In this document: in pieces, positions 15,292 through 22,557 of the stretch
Numbering within the stretch: the stretch's first letter is position 1
Layout of the letters: each line of letters begins with the position of its first letter
DNA from: a virus
Taxonomy: Duplodnaviria; Caudoviricetes
Strand: one strand, 5' to 3'
IMG/VR virus record: IMGVR_UViG_3300011115_000454
Span: 1 to 57,739 of that record
Length of the DNA stretch: 57,739 nucleotides
Translations under genes and position numbers: made by a program
The notes under the pieces: generated by a model
Databases searched by the model: none
Told to the model about the DNA's origin: nothing
Seen by the model: the letters and a program-made list of their open reading frames with translations, nothing else

Positions 15292-15717
15292 ATGGCAGCA
15301 AATACAGCACCAATTTTTTCACTTGCAGGGGCAGTAAGTTTAGGAACAGCTATCGGTACATCAATTGTTACTGATTACGTTGGTACAGGCGCAAACAACG
15401 TAGTAGCGTTCACGGCTAATGCAACTAATGGAGGATTTGTACAACGTATTCGTTTTAAAGCTGTTGGCACAAATGCTGTGTCTGTTGCTCGTATTTATAT
15501 AAACAACGGGTCAACTAATGCAACTGCGGCAAACAACACGTTTTATGGTGAATTGTCTTTACCTTCTACAACTGCTTCAACAACTGCTGGTACGGTTGAT
15601 ATTGACTATCCATTAAACTTTGCTTTACCTGCGGGGTACAGAATTGTTATTGGTATTTCTGCGGCGGCGGCTCTTGCATCAGGCTGGACACCAACGGTAA
15701 TTGCTGGCGCATACTAA
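15292..15717 (+). CDS. tail-fibre accessory protein
   Basis: AAGGAG SD; MAANTAPIF start; lies between the fibre and the Gly-rich genes. Confidence 0.6.
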   Translation: MAANTAPIFSLAGAVSLGTAIGTSIVTDYVGTGANNVVAFTANATNGGFVQRIRFKAVGTNAVSVARIYINNGSTNATAANNTFYGELSLPSTTASTTAGTVDIDYPLNFALPAGYRIVIGISAAAALASGWTPTVIAGAY

Positions 15718-16676
15718 TGCTTGACCTAAACAATCTTTTAACAAACCAAAAGGTTGATAAGCAGACTTTCTACGCTAATTCTCAAACGTCTGGAGCAGGA
15801 TGGGCAACATGGGCTAAACCTAGAGGCGTTAATTTTATTTCTATTTTGGCTATAGCCGGAGGAGGAGGCGGCGGCGGTGGCGGAAGAGCAGTTGCTGGAT
15901 CAGCAGCTGGAGGCGGGGGTGGCGGTGGTAGTGCGTATGTTTCATCATTATTTCCCGCTTGGATGCTTCCTGATGTGCTTTATGTATCAGTTGGAAAAGG
16001 TGGCGCTGGATCAATTGTAGCAGGCGCTGGATCAGCTGGTATAAATACATATATTTCAATATATTCATCTACTACAGGCAATAACGTAATTCATGCAGTT
16101 CTTTCTGGATCAGGAGGTACTGGTGCTGGTGGTGCTGGTGCTGCTGGCCCTGCTACTACCGTGCCTAATGCTTGTTTAGCATCTATAGGAACGTTTTATT
16201 CAGGTACTTCTGGAAGTCAAAGTGCTGCTGGACAAATAGGTGCTACTGGTTCTACTGTTTCTGCGGGAAATTCAATAACTCCTACAAATTCACTTACTAC
16301 AGGCGGCGCAGCAGGTGGCTGTTATGCTACTGCCGCAAATTCTGCTGGCGGCGCGGGCGGAAATATTAATGGAGTTGCAAATACTTTTTTTCCTACAGGT
16401 CTTTCTGGCGGAACTGCGGGAACAGCTGCTGGAACGGTAGGCAGTAATGGCTCTAACGGAGTTCAAATGTTTCCAAATTTGCCATTTGGCACAGGCGGCG
16501 CTGGGGGCGGTGGAGCGGGTCAAGCTGCCACAGGTAATACAGGTTTAAATGGCGGCTCAGGCGGTAATGGGCAATATGGTTGTGGCGGGGGTGGCGGAGG
16601 CGGTGGTTTTACCGGATCATCTGGCGGTTATGGCGGCAATGGTGGCGATGGTCTTGCAATTATTACTTCATGGTGA
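15717..16676 (+). CDS. glycine-rich adhesin-like protein, paralogue 1
   Basis: MLDLNNL...W.KPRG...poly-G...YGCGGGGGGGG...GGDG..IITSW. Confidence 0.8.
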   Translation: MLDLNNLLTNQKVDKQTFYANSQTSGAGWATWAKPRGVNFISILAIAGGGGGGGGGRAVAGSAAGGGGGGGSAYVSSLFPAWMLPDVLYVSVGKGGAGSIVAGAGSAGINTYISIYSSTTGNNVIHAVLSGSGGTGAGGAGAAGPATTVPNACLASIGTFYSGTSGSQSAAGQIGATGSTVSAGNSITPTNSLTTGGAAGGCYATAANSAGGAGGNINGVANTFFPTGLSGGTAGTAAGTVGSNGSNGVQMFPNLPFGTGGAGGGGAGQAATGNTGLNGGSGGNGQYGCGGGGGGGGFTGSSGGYGGNGGDGLAIITSW

Positions 16677-16679
16677 TTT

Positions 16680-17660
16680 ATGCTTGATCTTAATAATTTA
16701 CCCACAAATCAAAAAATTGACAGGCAAATTTTTTATGCCACCTCTAGCTCACAAGGCGGCACTTGGATTGCATGGCTAAAACCTCGTGGCGTTAATTTTA
16801 TAAGAATTTTATGCCTTGCTGGAGGTGGAGGTGGAGGTGGAGGGTTTGTTGGTGCGGCGGCAGTAGGAACTGCTGGTGGTGGCGGTGGGGGAGCTTCTTC
16901 ATCTCAAACAATTATTACTTTTCCTGCATGGGCATTACCTGATGTGCTTTATGTGGCTGTTGGATATGGTGGCGCAGGAGGTACAGCTTCTTCTAATGGC
17001 GCCACCGGCGTTGACACATATATTTCAATTTATGAAAGTGTGGTTCCAAACAATACAGTTTGCTATGCAAATGCCGGAGGAGGTGGAAATGCCGCTCTTG
17101 CGGGAGGATCTGGCGGATCTGCTGGCGGCGCTGGTACGGTTGCAAATTCGTATGTGGCAATTTTAGGGCAAAGCGGTAGATCAGCCGCAGCAAATTTAGG
17201 TATTGCCGCACAAGCTGGTGGTGCTGGCGGTAATAATGGCGGAGTAGGTACAAGTTTAATTTTACCAACTAGTGGGCTTATTGTTACAGCTGGGTCAGGT
17301 GGCGGTGGTTACGCTACTGGTGCAAATAGTCCGGGTGGTTCTGGTGGAGCGCTTCAGCCTGCTTCAGCGCCAGTTTTCCCAACTCAACCTACTGCGGCTG
17401 GTGGAACATCGGCAGGAACTGCTGGGGCAAATGGTTCAAATGGAGTGCAGGCTATGCCAAATTTACCATTTTTTTATGGCGGAAGCGGTGGAGGTGGAGC
17501 GGGTCAAGCCGCTACTGGTAACACAGGACTCACAGGAGGTTCTGGTGGCAAAGGTGCTTATGGTTGCGGAGGAGGGGGTGGTGGCGGAGGATTCACAGGC
17601 TCTACAGGGGGTCGAGGTGGCGATGGTGGCGATGGTTTGGTAATAATAACTTCGTGGTGA
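16680..17660 (+). CDS. glycine-rich adhesin-like protein, paralogue 2
   Basis: same architecture as 15717..16676. Confidence 0.8.
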   Translation: MLDLNNLPTNQKIDRQIFYATSSSQGGTWIAWLKPRGVNFIRILCLAGGGGGGGGFVGAAAVGTAGGGGGGASSSQTIITFPAWALPDVLYVAVGYGGAGGTASSNGATGVDTYISIYESVVPNNTVCYANAGGGGNAALAGGSGGSAGGAGTVANSYVAILGQSGRSAAANLGIAAQAGGAGGNNGGVGTSLILPTSGLIVTAGSGGGGYATGANSPGGSGGALQPASAPVFPTQPTAAGGTSAGTAGANGSNGVQAMPNLPFFYGGSGGGGAGQAATGNTGLTGGSGGKGAYGCGGGGGGGGFTGSTGGRGGDGGDGLVIITSW

Positions 17661-17663
17661 TAT

Positions 17664-18641
17664 ATGCTTGATTTAAACAATTTACCAAACAATCAAAAAA
17701 CAGATCAGCAGATTTTTTATACCAATTCAATAGGTAGTACAAGATGGGCGGTTTGGAATAAATCAAGGGGTGCTGGATTTATTCATATTTTTGCTCTTGG
17801 TGCAGCAGGCGGTGGTGGCGGCGGCTTCGCTGGCGGTGCAGGTGCAGCAGGTGGCGGCGGTGGAGGAGCTTCAGGCGGGTTTGCTAGTGCTTTCTTTTTA
17901 GCCGCTGATTTGCCTGATGTGCTTTATGTATCAGTTGGGAAAGGTGGCGCTGGCGGAGCAGTTGGTTCTGGTGGAACGACTTCTGGACCTACCTACATAG
18001 CTATTTATCCAGATGATGTTAATAACAATCTTTTCTTGTTAAATATAAGTACTGGCAATGGTGGTGGCGCTGGTAGCGCTGGAGCAGGTGGAACGGCGGG
18101 AACCGTTTCTTCTACTATTGCTTTATCAAATCAATCTTTAGCTGGATTAGGAACTTTTTATTCTACAGCTACAGGATCTGTAGGTGTTGCTGGACAGGCG
18201 GGTAGTGCTGGCGGAGGAATTAACGGCAATCCGGGTAGTAGTATTACTTATCCAACAACAGGGTCAATTACTTGTGGCGGGGGTGGCGGGGGCGGATATG
18301 CGTCTGCAACTAGCCCTGGTGGCAATGGCGGAAGAGTGACTACTGTTATTGCAGGTTGGCCTGCAACCGCAATATCTAATGGAGGTTCTGCTGGAGGCGG
18401 AGCAGGAAACAACGGCTCAAACGGTTTTCAGGTGTTTCCAAAAATGATGTTGTTTATTGGGGGCGCTGGAGGCGGGGGCGCTGGCTGCGGAGCAACTGGC
18501 ACAATAGCTGACATAGGCGGCGCGGGAGGCAAAGGTGCTTACGGTTGTGGTGGCGGCGGCGGAGGGGGTGGCTTTACGGGAACAACAGGTGGCATAGGCG
18601 GGGATGGTGGCGATGGTTTGGTAATAATAACTTCATGGTGA
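17664..18641 (+). CDS. glycine-rich adhesin-like protein, paralogue 3
   Basis: same architecture. Confidence 0.8.
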   Translation: MLDLNNLPNNQKTDQQIFYTNSIGSTRWAVWNKSRGAGFIHIFALGAAGGGGGGFAGGAGAAGGGGGGASGGFASAFFLAADLPDVLYVSVGKGGAGGAVGSGGTTSGPTYIAIYPDDVNNNLFLLNISTGNGGGAGSAGAGGTAGTVSSTIALSNQSLAGLGTFYSTATGSVGVAGQAGSAGGGINGNPGSSITYPTTGSITCGGGGGGGYASATSPGGNGGRVTTVIAGWPATAISNGGSAGGGAGNNGSNGFQVFPKMMLFIGGAGGGGAGCGATGTIADIGGAGGKGAYGCGGGGGGGGFTGTTGGIGGDGGDGLVIITSW

Positions 18642-19317: not shown

Positions 19318-19423
19318 TTTAATTGCGTCTTAACAAGTAAAGTTGGATAATCAATTATGCCAATCAAATCTGAACCACCAACTGAAGAAACGCCAGCATG
19401 AAAATGTATAACAAGGAGTGGTC

Positions 19424-19792
19424 ATGAACCAAACGGTAGGGCGGCTAATTGCCGTTATGTTCTTAAGTCGTGAGGTTGCGCACAGAGAACATTTGCGCAC
19501 AAAATCATTTTCGCAACACATGGCGCTCAACACTTTTTATGAAGAAATTGTAGGGCTGGCTGACTCTATAGCCGAAGCATATCAAGGGCGGTTTGGAATA
19601 ATCGACAAAATACCAATGTTGGATAATGATGCTACGGGTACAATTGACGATATTCTTGAAAAACACCTTGATATCATTGAGAAATTAAGGTATATAGCTG
19701 TTGACAAATCACAGACTGCGATACAAAATCTGATTGATGAGTCTGTTGCATTGTACTTAAGTACTTTGTATAAACTTCGAAATCTGAAGTAA
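19424..19792 (+). CDS. ferritin/Dps-like four-helix protein (DUF5856-like)
   Basis: AH..HL.TKSFSQHMALNTFYE.I..LAD..AEAYQG motif; AAGGAG SD. Confidence 0.7.
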   Translation: MNQTVGRLIAVMFLSREVAHREHLRTKSFSQHMALNTFYEEIVGLADSIAEAYQGRFGIIDKIPMLDNDATGTIDDILEKHLDIIEKLRYIAVDKSQTAIQNLIDESVALYLSTLYKLRNLK

Positions 19793-19801
19793 GGAAAAAT
19801 C

Positions 19802-20437
19802 ATGCCAGTCGTTTTTACAAATAATGCCACTGCGCCTTTGGCGTCTTCAATCTCGTCTTCGACTACATCTATTACTGTAACGACAGGACAAGGCGCGTTG
19901 TTTCCCGCTACTTCTGCGTCTAATTATTTTTACGCCACTCTTACAGATTCAAGTAATAACTTGGAAGTTATTAAAGTCACTAGTCGAACATCCGATACTT
20001 TTACTGTAGTTAGAGCGCAAGAAGGCACAACAGCTCGTGCGTATGCAGCAGCCGATAAACTTGAAGTTCGTGTAACCGCAGCCGGCCTTACAAACATGGC
20101 TCAGTTGGATAAAGACAACGCTTTTACTGGGGCAAATAGCTTTTCTGGAGTAACAACCACTACTGCAGCCATAAATACAACAGGCACAATAACAGCTACG
20201 GCTTTTGCTGGGCCTATAACAGGCAATGTCACAGGTAACGTAACTGGTAATCTAACAGGCAATGTCACAGGTAATACATCAGGAACGGCGGGTAGTGTTT
20301 CTACTACTAACTGGACAATTACAGAATCAGGTACAAAAATCTACTTCACATATGGCGGTGTAAAGAAAGCAATGTTAGATTCATCAGGTAATTTAACAGT
20401 AGTTGGAAACGTAACGGGATATGGAACTGTAACATGA
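19802..20437 (+). CDS. short tail-fibre protein
   Basis: FTNNA...LEVIKVTSR...VVRAQEGTTA attachment-type domain; (GNVT)n repeats; C-terminal GNLTVVGNVTGY. Confidence 0.75.
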   Translation: MPVVFTNNATAPLASSISSSTTSITVTTGQGALFPATSASNYFYATLTDSSNNLEVIKVTSRTSDTFTVVRAQEGTTARAYAAADKLEVRVTAAGLTNMAQLDKDNAFTGANSFSGVTTTTAAINTTGTITATAFAGPITGNVTGNVTGNLTGNVTGNTSGTAGSVSTTNWTITESGTKIYFTYGGVKKAMLDSSGNLTVVGNVTGYGTVT

Positions 20438-20850
20438 CGCTACCCACATCTGGAACTATTGCAATCTCCAACTTCAATACAGAAGCTGGTTTAACATCGA
20501 CTGCGTCTATCACCCTTGATTGGATTCGTACCAATACAAAAACTGGTCAGCAATCAAATTCGTTTAATGGTTACTATAGTAAAGCATGGTATCAGCGTAA
20601 TCAAGACGGTAATTGTAACAACGCAAATTGTTCTTCTGCTGCTAATTGTGTGGGCGACCTTCAATGTGTAAATTGCACATTAGCTACTATAAATTGTTCT
20701 AACTGTGATGCTCGTTCTTGGTTTCAAAGTAATTGTAACTGCGCATGTACATATAATTGCTCTCAAACCACAAATGTAAAATATAACTGCAATTGTGATT
20801 GTGCTTGTGATTGTGTTTGCGGGGGTGATTGTGGTGTTTGTGGTGTATAA
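20434..20850 (+). CDS. Cys-rich protein (19 Cys in the last 78 aa) with a fibre-tip-like N-terminus; putative radical-SAM substrate
   Basis: MTLPTSGTIAISNFNTEAG start; NC/DC-rich C-terminus; ATGA-coupled to the fibre gene and 20 nt upstream of the rSAM gene. Confidence 0.8.
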   Translation: MTLPTSGTIAISNFNTEAGLTSTASITLDWIRTNTKTGQQSNSFNGYYSKAWYQRNQDGNCNNANCSSAANCVGDLQCVNCTLATINCSNCDARSWFQSNCNCACTYNCSQTTNVKYNCNCDCACDCVCGGDCGVCGV

Positions 20851-20870
20851 GATTATTACCAAGGAAAAAA

Positions 20871-22322
20871 ATGCAATTTAAAATTCATACATTGAATTCT
20901 GATGGGAAAAAATTAATACTAGACTATGATAACGAAACAAACGCTTTGTCTACAGAAACCGGGCATATTTTTTATGACCCCCCAAAAGAAAAATCAGAAT
21001 TTAAAACTTCTATTCCTTTTAGTAAAGTTGACCCACGTGGAAAATCTTCCAAAATAGAAATTATTAAAATCCAACTTGGATTGTCATGTAACTATAGTTG
21101 CGGGTATTGTTCGCAACGTTTTGTTGAACGTCCTACCGAAACAAGTAAAAAAGATGTTGAGTCGTTTATTGAACAAATTAACGTATTGGATTTTGACGAA
21201 AAAACAGGATTAAAAATCGAGCTTTGGGGTGGAGAACCCATGGTTTACTGGAAAACATTAGTTCCGCTTGTCGAAGCCCTGCAAGAAAAATTTGCCTCGT
21301 GGAAAAATAAACCTCGTTTTTCAATGATTACAAACGGCTCACTCCTTACGCCAGAAAAAGGATACTGGCTTATGACAAATGATTTTACTGTAGCCATTAG
21401 TCATGATGGCCCAGCACAACATCAAAGAGGGCCTGACCCATTTGATGACCCAAAACTAAAGAAAACTATACTAGATTTTTGGAAACAGATGCATCGTATG
21501 GGGCGCATAAGTTTTAACTCAATGCTTACCGCTTCTAATACCAGCAGAAAAGAAATACACGATTGGTTTATAAAATTAACAGATGACCCATCTGTAGTTC
21601 TTGGTGAGGGCGGTATTGTCGACGCCTATGATGAAGGTGGATTTGCAAGTTTATTAGATACAAAAACAAAACATTTCGCATTTCGTAAACAAGCGTTTAA
21701 TGATATTTACTCAACCAGCGGGGATGTTGGATTTAAACAAATTGTTGGGAAAATAGATTCATTTATTAATAATGTGTATTCACAAAAACCTGCTACTTCA
21801 GTAGGACAAAAATGTGGCATGGACAGTGAAAATATTATTGCTGTTGATTTGCGGGGCAACATTCTTACTTGCCACAACACAAGCTCAGTAGAAACCTCAT
21901 TTAATGGGGAAAGTCATTTAATAGGCACTGTGGCTAAAATTGATGAAGCAAAATTAACTACAGCAACACATTGGAGAAACAGACCACATTGCGCTGCTTG
22001 TCCTGTACTACATCTGTGTTCCGGCAGTTGTATGTTCCTTGAGGGTAAAAATTGGACAGAGTCATGTGCAAACGCATATAGCGATAATGTTGCATTATTT
22101 TCTTTGGCGATTGAAAAAATCACAAAAGGGTTTGTCCCATACCTTATTGAAGGTGGAGACCTCCCACCTGAACGTGCTGATATTTGGGGGGACGTGTTTA
22201 AGCACATTGAGTCCACACCCAAACAGAAATCATTTCCAGTCAAAATTATTGCCGTCGAAAAAAACATCGAAGTCAATGGCGTAGAGGTATACGCAAAATC
22301 GGAGGTAATGCATGGAGTATGA
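20871..22322 (+). CDS. radical SAM / SPASM-domain protein
   Basis: CNYSCGYC (CxxxCxxC), WGGEP, ITNG, ISHDG; SPASM Cx13Gx4C...Cx2Cx5Cx3C...C; AAGGA SD before ATG 20871. Confidence 0.92.
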   Translation: MQFKIHTLNSDGKKLILDYDNETNALSTETGHIFYDPPKEKSEFKTSIPFSKVDPRGKSSKIEIIKIQLGLSCNYSCGYCSQRFVERPTETSKKDVESFIEQINVLDFDEKTGLKIELWGGEPMVYWKTLVPLVEALQEKFASWKNKPRFSMITNGSLLTPEKGYWLMTNDFTVAISHDGPAQHQRGPDPFDDPKLKKTILDFWKQMHRMGRISFNSMLTASNTSRKEIHDWFIKLTDDPSVVLGEGGIVDAYDEGGFASLLDTKTKHFAFRKQAFNDIYSTSGDVGFKQIVGKIDSFINNVYSQKPATSVGQKCGMDSENIIAVDLRGNILTCHNTSSVETSFNGESHLIGTVAKIDEAKLTTATHWRNRPHCAACPVLHLCSGSCMFLEGKNWTESCANAYSDNVALFSLAIEKITKGFVPYLIEGGDLPPERADIWGDVFKHIESTPKQKSFPVKIIAVEKNIEVNGVEVYAKSEVMHGV

Positions 22323-22557
22323 ACAACTAATACAGAAGTTAGAAGCAATGCCCGAGGTTAGGTACGCTCTTGTTTATGAAGTGCAAGAATCAGGCGGCCT
22401 TACATATGCGGTGCAAATAGGTAACAATCGTAGTTCGCAAAGCAGAATGGGGAAAATCTTTGTTCCCCCCGAAATAATTGCAGATGTTGATGCGTACGAT
22501 AGTATTTGTGAAAATGTGCATAAAATATTTATGCAATATAAAACTGAAGCGTCGTAG
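22312..22557 (+). CDS. hypothetical 81-aa protein coupled to the rSAM gene
   Basis: GGAGG SD; overlaps the rSAM stop. Confidence 0.65.
   Translation: MEYEQLIQKLEAMPEVRYALVYEVQESGGLTYAVQIGNNRSSQSRMGKIFVPPEIIADVDAYDSICENVHKIFMQYKTEAS

What the first reader, a model, noticed from the sequence alone, without database searches (positions are those of the whole stretch)
19802..22557. Tail fibre, Cys-rich tip protein and radical SAM/SPASM enzyme: candidate RiPP-like modification system for a virion protein
Seen in sequence: a short fibre gene ending GNLTVVGNVTGY is ATGA-coupled to a 138-aa ORF. Its first 60 aa have no Cys and look like a fibre-tip attachment segment (MTLPTSGTIAISNFNTEAG). Its last 78 aa have 19 Cys, 14 of them preceded by Asn or Asp (NC x11, DC x3; ...NCNCACTYNC...NCNCDCACDCVC). 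20 nt later comes a 483-aa enzyme with CxxxCxxC, GGEP and a full SPASM motif (Cx13Gx4C...Cx2Cx5Cx3C...C), then a coupled 81-aa ORF. Established: rSAM/SPASM enzymes next to Cys-rich substrates install thioether crosslinks, e.g. PapB (Cys-Asp), NxxcB (Cys-Asn), CteB, and QhpD on the QhpC protein subunit. Inference: the phage crosslinks its own receptor-binding tip in the reducing cytoplasm, where disulfides do not form. An alternative is a metal-cluster-loaded tip. I know of no characterised example in a virion.
Basis: partly seen in the sequence, partly recalled or inferred. Interest (0 to 1): 0.92.

Follow-up and report, generated by a model that had tools for sequence, protein, structure and literature searches.

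The report
Radical-SAM-matured cysteine-ladder phage fibre tip
This phage encodes, right after a tail-fibre gene, a small fibre-tip-type protein whose tail is a ladder of Asn-Cys pairs, next to a dedicated iron-sulfur "radical SAM" enzyme; the same pairing recurs in well over a hundred other phage contigs, so these viruses probably modify (most likely cross-link) a host-binding tip enzymatically.

Summary
The pairing is not chance. Of 80 viral loci found through the Cys-rich protein, 79 carry the enzyme within 2.4 kb, in either gene order. Of 80 loci found through the enzyme, 75 carry an Asn-Cys-rich ORF, and 4 of the 5 misses are cut by a contig end. In a second, distant enzyme clade, 66 of 80 loci have a Cys ladder. 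In relatives the ladder sits directly before self-cleaving Hint or Peptidase_S74 domains of fibres. The 58-aa N-terminal module also heads Gly_rich_2 adhesin-type proteins. The enzyme has 7 SPASM cysteines like the thioether synthase CteB, not 8 like anSME. Best reading: the enzyme modifies the ladder of a fibre-tip protein, probably with thioether cross-links. The chemistry and the virion location are inferred. The 81-aa ORF is not conserved and no RRE was found. Seven paper searches found no description. This scan found the same system before on other DNA.

The parts
19802..20437 (+). Short tail-fibre gene (211 aa). It has a fibre-type N-terminus, a GNVTGN repeat stalk and a conserved ~45-aa C-terminal domain (W.V.ESG.KLYF.Y.G...LDSSGN...GNV.AY). 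It is translationally coupled (ATGA) to the next gene.
   Evidence: PHROG tail-fibre families phrog_8469 (3e-28) and phrog_30299 (4e-20) on residues 1-140. The C-terminal domain recurs directly upstream of the enzyme/ladder pair in loci such as L025, L050, L073, L076 and L124.
20434..20607 (+). N-terminal adaptor module (residues 1-58, MTLPxSGxI..S..N.E.G...) of the Cys-rich protein. It is Cys-free and modelled as confidently folded.
   Evidence: AlphaFold2 pLDDT is 86-92 for residues 1-55. A profile search found 745 cluster representatives at E<=1e-3, with the module at residue 1 in nearly all listed rows. Of the 147 listed proteins examined, 80 have Asn-Cys-rich tails and 42 have non-Cys tails. 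Of 10 non-Cys examples, 4 hit Gly_rich_2 (3 above cut-off) and 1 hit Fibrinogen_C.
20608..20850 (+). Asn-Cys ladder domain (residues 59-138, 19 Cys): GNCNN.NC ... NC.NCD ... WFQSNCNCACTYNC ... YNCNCDCACDCVC.... This is the proposed substrate region of the enzyme.
   Evidence: Conserved Cys and Asn columns in 42 homologues. AlphaFold2 pLDDT is below 50 here. NC, NxxC, CxC and CxxxD are enriched over shuffles. No Pfam, NCBIfam or PHROG family hit.
20871..22322 (+). Radical SAM/SPASM enzyme (483 aa) of phage family phrog_1802. It has a CX3CX2C cluster, GGEP and a 7-Cys SPASM domain.
   Evidence: PF04055 3.6e-7; TIGR04085 SPASM 5e-8; best NCBIfam hit PapB family 2.8e-26, below cut-off; phrog_1802 5e-60. 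AlphaFold2 pLDDT 92. Nearest solved folds are anSME, CteB, ChlB and TigE. Linked to ladder ORFs in 79/80, 75/80 and 66/80 loci.

Best explanation
The 138-aa protein is a distal fibre-tip protein. A 58-aa adaptor module, also used by other phage adhesin-type proteins, carries an 80-aa Asn-Cys ladder. The adjacent radical SAM/SPASM enzyme is its dedicated maturase. Proposed mechanism: in the infected cell's reducing cytoplasm, a ladder cysteine binds the open iron site of the enzyme's first auxiliary [4Fe-4S] cluster. The 5'-deoxyadenosyl radical abstracts a hydrogen from a nearby side-chain carbon, most likely the beta-carbon of an Asn or Asp in NxxC or CxxxD register. A thioether (S-C) bond then forms, and the cycle repeats along the ladder. 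The product would be a rigid, redox-proof, protease-resistant tip that needs no disulfides. Shown here: the genes, the motifs, and the very tight, order-independent gene linkage across diverged clades. Inferred: that the ladder is the substrate (my odds about 0.8), that the chemistry is thioether formation (about 0.5), and that the protein sits on the virion fibre tip (about 0.65). The window carries a minimal version: one enzyme, no 2OG oxygenase and no second radical SAM gene.
For: (1) Linkage from the substrate side. An A1 profile scan of viral contigs gave 141 relatives. In the 80 loci kept, 79 have the enzyme within 2.4 kb. The single miss, L032, ends 210 nt after the Cys gene.

(2) Linkage from the enzyme side. 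Of the best 80 of at least 590 enzyme relatives, 73 have the window-type protein and 2 have another Asn-Cys ORF. Of the 5 with none, 4 are cut by a contig end on one side.

(3) Gene order is free: 77 loci have Cys before rSAM and 70 have the reverse. This argues for selection on co-inheritance rather than shared ancestry of one arrangement.

(4) Diverged enzymes (33-45% identity) keep the association with different ladder carriers. These include 122-139-aa proteins ending NCNCNCACNCNCACNCNC, and 200-650-aa fibre-like proteins ending NCNCNCxCxC with or without Hint. In this sample 66/80 loci have a ladder, and 11 of the 14 misses have less than 2 kb of upstream DNA. Achromobacter phage JWF and 5 JWF-like records have the ladder inside a fibre, directly before a Hint domain.

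(5) Fibre context. In 106 unique ladder proteins, the ladder is followed by nothing (50), a ~170-aa unknown domain (40), Peptidase_S74 (4) or Hint (4). Upstream neighbours are often fibres with S74 chaperone ends.

(6) The enzyme class fits Cys-directed cross-linking. The best NCBIfam hit is the PapB ranthipeptide maturase family. There are seven SPASM Cys. In the profile alignment the window's C315 matches the first Cys of anSME's CGMNGTC and the second is absent, as in CteB. CteB has an open Aux I site, while anSME is fully ligated (PMC6231123, passages read). PapB and Tte1186 bind the substrate Cys/Sec at an auxiliary cluster (PMC10177961, abstract read).

(7) Precedent for protein-sized substrates: CrpC installs thioethers on the Cys-rich protein CrpA (PMC13692751, abstract and sections 8 and 12 read).

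(8) AlphaFold2 folds the adaptor confidently but not the ladder. This is what would be expected if the ladder's final structure depends on modification, metal or oligomerisation.
Against: No experiment exists, so the chemistry is unknown. The enzyme scores far below every curated NCBIfam cut-off: PapB 92 vs 340, QhpD 77 vs 453, anSME 56 vs 349, TIGR04463 41 vs 525. Its nearest solved fold by Foldseek is anSME, a Cys-to-formylglycine oxidase, tied with CteB. The six 'catalytic proximity' positions read off the alignment (S, W, I, S, H, N) match CteB (F, F, T, S, H, Q) at only 2 of 6. No RRE was found and no leader-like cleavage site is evident. Clean exceptions exist. Ralstonia phage RSP15 has the enzyme (46% identity) beside fibre genes but no in-frame CxCxCxC anywhere in its genome. 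L261, L262 and L267 have 7 kb upstream without a ladder. L148 has only a start-less 24-codon ladder remnant. No cultured phage in the 50,697-record collection encodes the window-type protein, so no virion proteomics bears on it.
Confidence: 0.55

Rival explanations
1. The enzyme does modify the ladder, but by another radical reaction than thioether formation. Candidates are anSME-like oxidation of Cys to a thioaldehyde or formylglycine that then reacts with neighbouring Asn amides, C-C cross-links, epimerisation, or sulfur removal.
For: anSME is the top Foldseek match (3e-12), tied with CteB. All curated maturase families are missed by wide margins. SPASM enzymes with high similarity can do different chemistry (PMC10288494, passages read). 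49 of 80 related loci also carry a 2OG-Fe(II) oxygenase and 14 of 80 carry a second radical SAM gene, so the final chemistry may be more complex than one cross-link type.
Against: The enzyme lacks anSME's eighth cluster-ligating Cys and has H/Q-N where anSME has its D-F pair after the Aux I Cys. The anSME target motif (C-x-P/A-x-R, recalled) is absent from the ladder. The best profile hit is the PapB family. NxxC and CxxxD spacings, the registers used by known ranthisynthases, are enriched.
Confidence: 0.2
2. The ladder is a metal- or iron-sulfur-binding tip, a Cys analogue of the His-x-His iron sites of T4 fibre needles. The radical SAM enzyme is needed only indirectly or acts on something else.
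For: CxCxC in an extended strand puts all thiols on one face. Peptidase_S74 fusions imply trimers, which would give three thiolates per layer. AlphaFold2 cannot fold the region without ligands. Many Cys-rich proteins beside radical SAM genes are metal binders (PMC13692751, section 8).
Against: Metal binding alone does not explain why a radical SAM/SPASM enzyme is retained next to the ladder in 79/80, 75/80 and 66/80 loci through changes of gene order and carrier protein. It also does not explain why Asn rather than any residue precedes 71% of the Cys. No SPASM enzyme is known to me to act as a metallochaperone (recalled).
Confidence: 0.1
3. The Cys-rich protein is not a virion part. It is a phage-made RiPP-like product, such as an effector, a metal scavenger or an anti-competitor peptide. 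The N-terminal 58 aa act as a leader, and the position beside fibre genes is a matter of late co-expression.
For: The bipartite layout (Cys-free head, Cys-rich core) resembles leader and core. Some loci place the pair among non-structural genes or beside oxygenases rather than fibres (L148, L122). Ralstonia phage RP12 has only a 73-codon ladder ORF before three radical SAM genes.
Against: The head is a confidently folded module and is shared with Gly_rich_2 and other non-Cys proteins. The ladder is embedded in bona fide fibres before Hint or S74 domains in relatives. The enzyme has no RRE. ATGA coupling to the fibre gene suggests matched synthesis of the two proteins.
Confidence: 0.1

Closest known systems
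PapB/PapA (freyrasin) and the related NxxcB/NxxcA ranthipeptide systems
   Same: A radical SAM/SPASM enzyme sits next to a substrate with many repeated Cys motifs. The PapB family is the best NCBIfam hit (2.8e-26). CxxxD and NxxC registers are enriched in the ladder. Thioether formation with the substrate Cys on an auxiliary cluster (PMC10177961 abstract) fits the 7-Cys SPASM domain.
   Different: The score is 92 against a cut-off of 340, so this is not a member. The substrate is a 138-aa protein with a folded adaptor, not a leader peptide. No RRE is present. The host is a virus and the context is tail fibres. NxxcB's Cys-Asn chemistry is recalled, not checked in a paper here.
CrpC/CrpA of Methanococcus voltae (PMC13692751)
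   Same: A SPASM radical SAM enzyme installs several thioether (ranthionine-type) links on a Cys-rich protein with repeated motifs, predicted to be beta-helix-like (abstract and sections 8 and 12 read).
   Different: CrpC belongs to TIGR04463, which the window enzyme hits only at 41 bits against a cut-off of 525. CrpC has an RRE. CrpA motifs are C-x-x-Q/D in 17-residue repeats, not Asn-Cys ladders. It is archaeal and cellular, and the paper's main text does not contain the words phage, viral or tail.
QhpD/QhpC (quinohemoprotein amine dehydrogenase maturation)
   Same: A SPASM enzyme makes Cys-Asp/Glu thioethers in a protein subunit (recalled). It is the second-best NCBIfam hit (TIGR03906, 9.7e-22).
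   Different: The score is 77 against a cut-off of 453. The match covers only the radical SAM core (residues 60-184). There is no dehydrogenase context.
CteB/SCIFF and anSME (solved SPASM structures)
   Same: These are the closest solved folds: 4k36 at 3e-12 and 5why at 9e-12. The cysteine count and pattern in the SPASM domain match CteB.
   Different: Sequence identity is 14-18%. CteB has an N-terminal RRE that is absent here. anSME has a fully ligated Aux I and oxidises one Cys or Ser of a sulfatase.
T-even gp38-type adhesins and Gly_rich_2 fibre-tip proteins
   Same: A small protein is encoded right after a fibre gene, with an N-terminal attachment module and a repetitive, sequence-variable C-terminal part. 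The window's N-module heads Gly_rich_2 proteins elsewhere. There are weak structural matches to GP38-domain proteins (BFVD E 1.6-5; Atlas TM 0.39; leads only).
   Different: No sequence-level match to PF05268 was found. The C-terminal part is a Cys ladder paired with an enzyme, which gp38 lacks.

Membership tests
Radical SAM superfamily (PF04055) | CX3CX2C motif for the SAM-binding [4Fe-4S] cluster and a GGE-type SAM-binding motif | tested here: met
   C73, C77, C80 and G120-G-E-P123 are invariant in 68 homologues. PF04055 scores 30.9 bits against a cut-off of 29.5.
SPASM subfamily (TIGR04085) | C-terminal 7-Cys motif Cx9-15Gx4C...Cx2Cx5Cx3C...C for two auxiliary clusters | tested here: met
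   C315, G329, C334, C374, C377, C383, C387 and C399 are invariant. TIGR04085 scores 33.2 bits against a cut-off of 27.
PapB family ranthipeptide maturase (NF047865) | Score above the curated equivalog cut-off (340 bits) | tested here: not met
   92.5 bits, E 2.8e-26. It is the best hit but far below the cut-off.
Anaerobic sulfatase-maturating enzyme (TIGR03942) | Score above cut-off (349 bits), and eight SPASM-region Cys giving a fully ligated Aux I | tested here: not met
   56.3 bits. The second Cys of anSME's CGMNGTC has no counterpart in the window enzyme. The ligation states are from PMC6231123.
CrpC-type TIGR04463 maturase of large Cys-rich proteins | Score above cut-off (525 bits); N-terminal RRE | tested here: not met
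   41.2 bits. The N-terminus is modelled as three strands only.
RiPP system in the strict sense | Leader peptide recognised by an RRE (PqqD-like) domain in the enzyme or a partner | tested here: not met
   Neither the enzyme nor the 81-aa ORF has a PqqD/RRE Pfam hit at E<=0.1. Residues 1-28 of the enzyme form three strands with no helices, and only ~60 residues precede the core. The 81-aa ORF has no homologue in the related loci. A small or divergent recognition element cannot be excluded.
Phage radical SAM family phrog_1802 | Full-length profile match | tested here: met
   E 5.4e-60, residues 23-418 on profile positions 11-407 of 556.
Phage fibre-tip / adhesin protein | Presence in virions and attachment to a fibre | not testable with these tools
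   Indirect evidence only: a shared N-module with Gly_rich_2 proteins, ladder-Hint and ladder-S74 fusions in relatives, and ATGA coupling to the fibre gene.
Thioether (sacti-/ranthi-) cross-linked product | -2 Da per link, loss of free thiol, S-C bond to an acceptor carbon | not testable with these tools
   This needs mass spectrometry of co-expressed protein. Only the enzyme class and motif spacing point this way.

The most novel reading that the evidence does not exclude
The enzyme staples the three chains of a trimeric fibre tip to each other through inter-chain Cys-Asn/Asp thioethers while a removable Hint, S74 or unknown C-terminal domain holds them in register. The result would be a covalently locked receptor-binding needle. 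This would be the first enzyme-installed covalent cross-link in a tailed-phage virion, and a widespread, unrecognised layer of phage host-recognition biochemistry, found in hundreds of aquatic phage contigs and in Burkholderiales phages.
Probability: 0.2. Interest if true: 0.92.

Novelty: new variant of a known kind. Interest (0 to 1): 0.8.

Why it matters
Radical SAM/SPASM cross-linking is known for small peptides (RiPPs) and for a very few cellular proteins. If phages use it on their own fibre tips, that adds an enzymatic maturation step to virion assembly. It would explain how a Cys-dense extracellular structure can be built in a reducing cytoplasm. It would also supply a compact two-gene system, in this window just substrate plus one enzyme, for studying or borrowing protein-scale thioether stapling. 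Finally, it gives a function to a phage gene family (phrog_1802) that is usually annotated 'AslB/arylsulfatase regulator' or 'radical SAM domain protein' and is sometimes read as an auxiliary metabolic or antibiotic gene.

Tried and rejected
Chance adjacency is rejected by the co-occurrence counts.

The 81-aa ORF as a conserved partner or RRE is rejected. It has no family hit and no tblastn hit in the related loci. DUF5856 (19418-19792) and the 234-aa downstream ORF are likewise absent from those loci.

The TTG start at 20829 for the enzyme is rejected in favour of ATG 20871.

tblastn of the Cys-rich protein against 50,697 phage records found no match (the low-complexity filter was on).

The fold of the Cys-rich protein was searched three ways. 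Foldseek against PDB gave nothing. VIA-align wide gave nothing at Z>=2. BFVD gave only a family member at 7.5e-5 plus weak rows. The Atlas neighbours with GP38, Gly_rich_2 and Laminin_G_3 have TM 0.37-0.41 and are used as leads only.

The A1 profile search of the records behind exception loci L148, L122, L094, RSP15 and RP12 found nothing. A CxCxCxC DNA pattern then found a ladder ORF in RP12, a remnant in L148's contig, and only off-frame hits in RSP15 and L094's contig.

Catalytic-proximity profiling after PMC10288494 was read off HMMER alignments only. It is weak and I do not lean on it. That paper's supplement, with profiles for PapB and NxxcB, could not be seen.

Complex prediction was run with three copies of the fibre's C-terminal 100 aa plus three copies of Cys-protein residues 1-58. 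Result: no verdict (score 0.01). It counts neither for nor against binding.

Literature: seven searches found no paper on a radical SAM enzyme acting on a phage fibre or virion protein. The RP12/RP31 paper only lists its radical SAM genes under 'other genes' (PMC5468394, passages). The S-SCSM2R cyanophage paper reads a radical SAM maturase as an 'antibiotic synthesis gene' (PMC12801897, passages).

Not done: expression evidence from sequencing runs, and the metagenome contigs and genome-contig scans.


Full report
**What is there**

The window is a complete 57.7-kb viral record. Terminase, portal, capsid, tail-fibre, lysis and ejection genes lie on the + strand.

Inside the late region lie four tightly packed genes:
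- A 211-aa fibre gene at 19802-20437, with PHROG tail-fibre N-terminus hits.
- A 138-aa ORF at 20434-20850 whose ATG overlaps the fibre's TGA.
- After 20 nt and an AGGA, a 483-aa radical SAM/SPASM gene at 20871-22322.
- An 81-aa ORF at 22312-22557, overlapping the enzyme's end by 11 nt.

The 138-aa protein has no Cys in its first 60 residues and 19 in the last 78, with 11 NC and 3 DC. The enzyme has CX3CX2C, GGEP and the full seven-Cys SPASM motif. All ten of these Cys are invariant in 68 homologues.

**Is the pairing real?**

The Cys-rich protein has no Pfam, NCBIfam or PHROG family. It does have 42 database homologues with conserved Cys and Asn columns.

From the substrate side, a profile scan of viral contigs found 141 relatives. 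In the 80 loci kept, 79 carry a homologue of the enzyme within 2.4 kb. The one miss ends 210 nt past the Cys gene.

From the enzyme side, the best 80 of at least 590 enzyme relatives were examined:
- 73 have the window-type protein.
- 2 have another Asn-Cys ORF.
- 5 have none. Four of these are cut by a contig end on one side. One (L148) has full flanks and only a start-less 24-codon frame reading ..CDCVCACNC.. right before the enzyme.

No other ORF in any frame of these loci reached 5 [ND]C per 40 aa, so the background is near zero. Gene order is about evenly split: 77 loci have Cys first and 70 have the enzyme first. Linkage is therefore kept through rearrangement.

**Does it extend beyond close relatives?**

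Enzymes only 33-45% identical to the window's were sampled separately. In 66 of 80 loci, a same-strand ORF 0.8-5.4 kb upstream carries a CxCxC ladder. One of the 66 (L226) is doubtful. The carriers differ:
- 122-139-aa proteins ending NCNCNCACNCNCACNCNC, directly after an S74-type fibre (L106).
- 200-aa and 360-650-aa fibre-like proteins ending NCNCG.FNC..NCNCNCxCxC, some continuing into Hint.

Of the 14 misses, 11 have under 2 kb of upstream DNA and 3 (L261, L262, L267) are clean.

Among cultured phages:
- Achromobacter phage JWF (enzyme 41% identical) has ...NCNCDCNCNCSC|FPAGT..., a ladder directly before a Hint domain of fibre gp028. Five JWF-like records have the same.
- Ralstonia jumbo phage RP12 has an unannotated 73-codon ORF ending ..GSNCNCNCACTRGSL, 1 kb before its three radical SAM genes.
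- Ralstonia phage RSP15 (46% identical) is a true exception. The enzyme sits beside fibre genes, but no in-frame ladder exists in the genome.

**What is the Cys-rich protein?**

AlphaFold2 folds residues 1-55 with pLDDT 86-92 and leaves the ladder below 50.

A profile of the 58-aa head finds 745 cluster representatives, with the module at residue 1 in nearly all listed rows. Of 147 listed proteins examined:
- 80 have Asn-Cys tails.
- 42 have non-Cys tails.
- 21 are short.
- 4 are Cys-rich in another way.

Of 10 non-Cys examples, 4 hit Gly_rich_2 (3 above cut-off) and 1 hits Fibrinogen_C. Weak structural neighbours include GP38-adhesin, Gly_rich_2 and lectin-like clusters (leads only). The head is therefore a swappable adaptor in front of varied binding-type domains, not a RiPP leader.

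Among 106 unique complete ladder proteins:
- 50 end at the ladder, as in the window.
- 40 continue into a ~170-aa domain of no known family (..NCSK|IICxKLY..).
- 4 continue into Peptidase_S74.
- 4 continue into Hint.
- 8 are unclassified.

S74 and Hint are self-removing modules of fibres (established knowledge, recalled). Their position right after the last ladder Cys suggests that the mature protein ends with the ladder and that it is trimeric. This is inference.

**What is the enzyme?**

It belongs to phage family phrog_1802 (5e-60). Its best curated hit is the PapB ranthipeptide-maturase family, followed by QhpD. All hits are far below cut-off, so it is a member of none.

The model is confident (pLDDT 92). 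Its N-terminus is three strands without helices, so no full RRE is present. The nearest solved folds are anSME, CteB, ChlB and TigE.

In the profile alignment, the window's C315 aligns with the first Cys of anSME's CGMNGTC and the second has no counterpart, as in CteB. CteB has an open site on Aux I, whereas anSME is fully ligated (PMC6231123). PapB and Tte1186 bind the substrate Cys at an auxiliary cluster (PMC10177961 abstract). This favours thioether-type chemistry over anSME-type oxidation but does not prove it.

In the ladder, NC, NxxC, CxC and CxxxD are enriched, while NxC and CxxC are depleted.

**Mechanism proposed**

The enzyme cross-links ladder cysteines to nearby side-chain carbons, most likely of Asn or Asp. 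The product would be a rigid, redox-independent fibre tip.

Shown: anatomy and linkage. Inferred: the substrate relation (about 0.8), thioether chemistry (about 0.5) and virion location (about 0.65).

Many related loci add a 2OG-Fe(II) oxygenase (49/80) or a second radical SAM gene (14/80). The window has neither, so it is a minimal form.

**Rivals**

- Other radical chemistry on the ladder (0.2).
- A metal-loaded tip, with the enzyme only incidental (0.1).
- A non-virion RiPP-like product (0.1).

**Comparison and novelty**

The closest characterised systems are PapB/PapA, CteB/SCIFF, QhpD/QhpC and, for protein-sized substrates, CrpC/CrpA (PMC13692751). None is viral.

Seven literature searches found no description of a radical SAM enzyme acting on a phage fibre. 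The searched library lacks most subscription journals, and supplements were closed.

Earlier notes of this scan describe the same system on other genomes. I reached the Hint, S74 and co-occurrence results from my own calls before reading them. One of those notes led me to the CrpC paper.

**Verdict**

This is a new variant of a known kind of system, with interest 0.8.

Noticed in passing
L179:1318-1536 (= NC_041911.1 about 82864-83082, Ralstonia phage RP12): An unannotated 73-codon ORF ends ..HTHVFYDNYGSNCNCNCACTRGSL. It lies in the gap between annotated ORF074 and ORF075, after two 'virion structural protein' genes and 1 kb before three radical SAM genes. It is a likely missed substrate gene.
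   Followed up: partly
L182:1492-1563 (contig of L148, directly upstream of its radical SAM gene): A 24-codon frame without a start codon reads ESTCDCVCACNCS.... It is overlapped in another frame by a 192-aa ORF. It may be a decayed ladder gene in a locus where the enzyme sits among non-structural genes.
   Followed up: partly
related loci, e.g. L018:3207-3776, L011:5349-5969, L064:5389-5970: A ~200-aa 2OG-Fe(II) oxygenase (PF13759, up to 3e-20) lies directly upstream of the Cys-ladder gene. Homologues occur in 49 of 80 enzyme-selected loci but nowhere in the window. Such oxygenases are common in aquatic phages, so the link may be partly background.
   Followed up: partly
related loci, e.g. 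L010:4436-5968: A second, ~510-aa radical SAM protein (PF04055, 2e-13) lies directly upstream of the ladder gene in 14 of 80 enzyme-selected loci.
   Followed up: partly
related loci, e.g. L111:7468-8373, L132:5342-6328: About 40 of 106 unique ladder proteins continue after ..NCSK into a conserved ~170-aa domain (IICxKLY...WAADQ.YG...). It has a hydrophobic end and no Pfam family, and is found mostly when the ladder gene lies downstream of the enzyme. Its function is unknown.
   Followed up: partly
window 19418-19792: A DUF5856 / phrog_858 gene ('starvation-inducible regulator', Dps-like by name) sits between the Gly-rich adhesin paralogues and the fibre gene. It is not found in the related loci.
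   Followed up: partly
window 15717-18641: The phage also carries tandem Gly_rich_2-type paralogues (PF21722, 1e-8 for 16680-17660). In other phages this domain is fused to the same N-terminal adaptor module that heads the Cys-ladder protein here. In this window the paralogues use a different N-terminus.
   Followed up: partly
L001:4162-4992 (Ralstonia phage RSP15 ORF046): In the one cultured phage with the enzyme but no ladder, the gene directly upstream is a 276-aa protein of no Pfam family, between fibre genes and the enzyme. It may be a different substrate or a partner.
   Followed up: no
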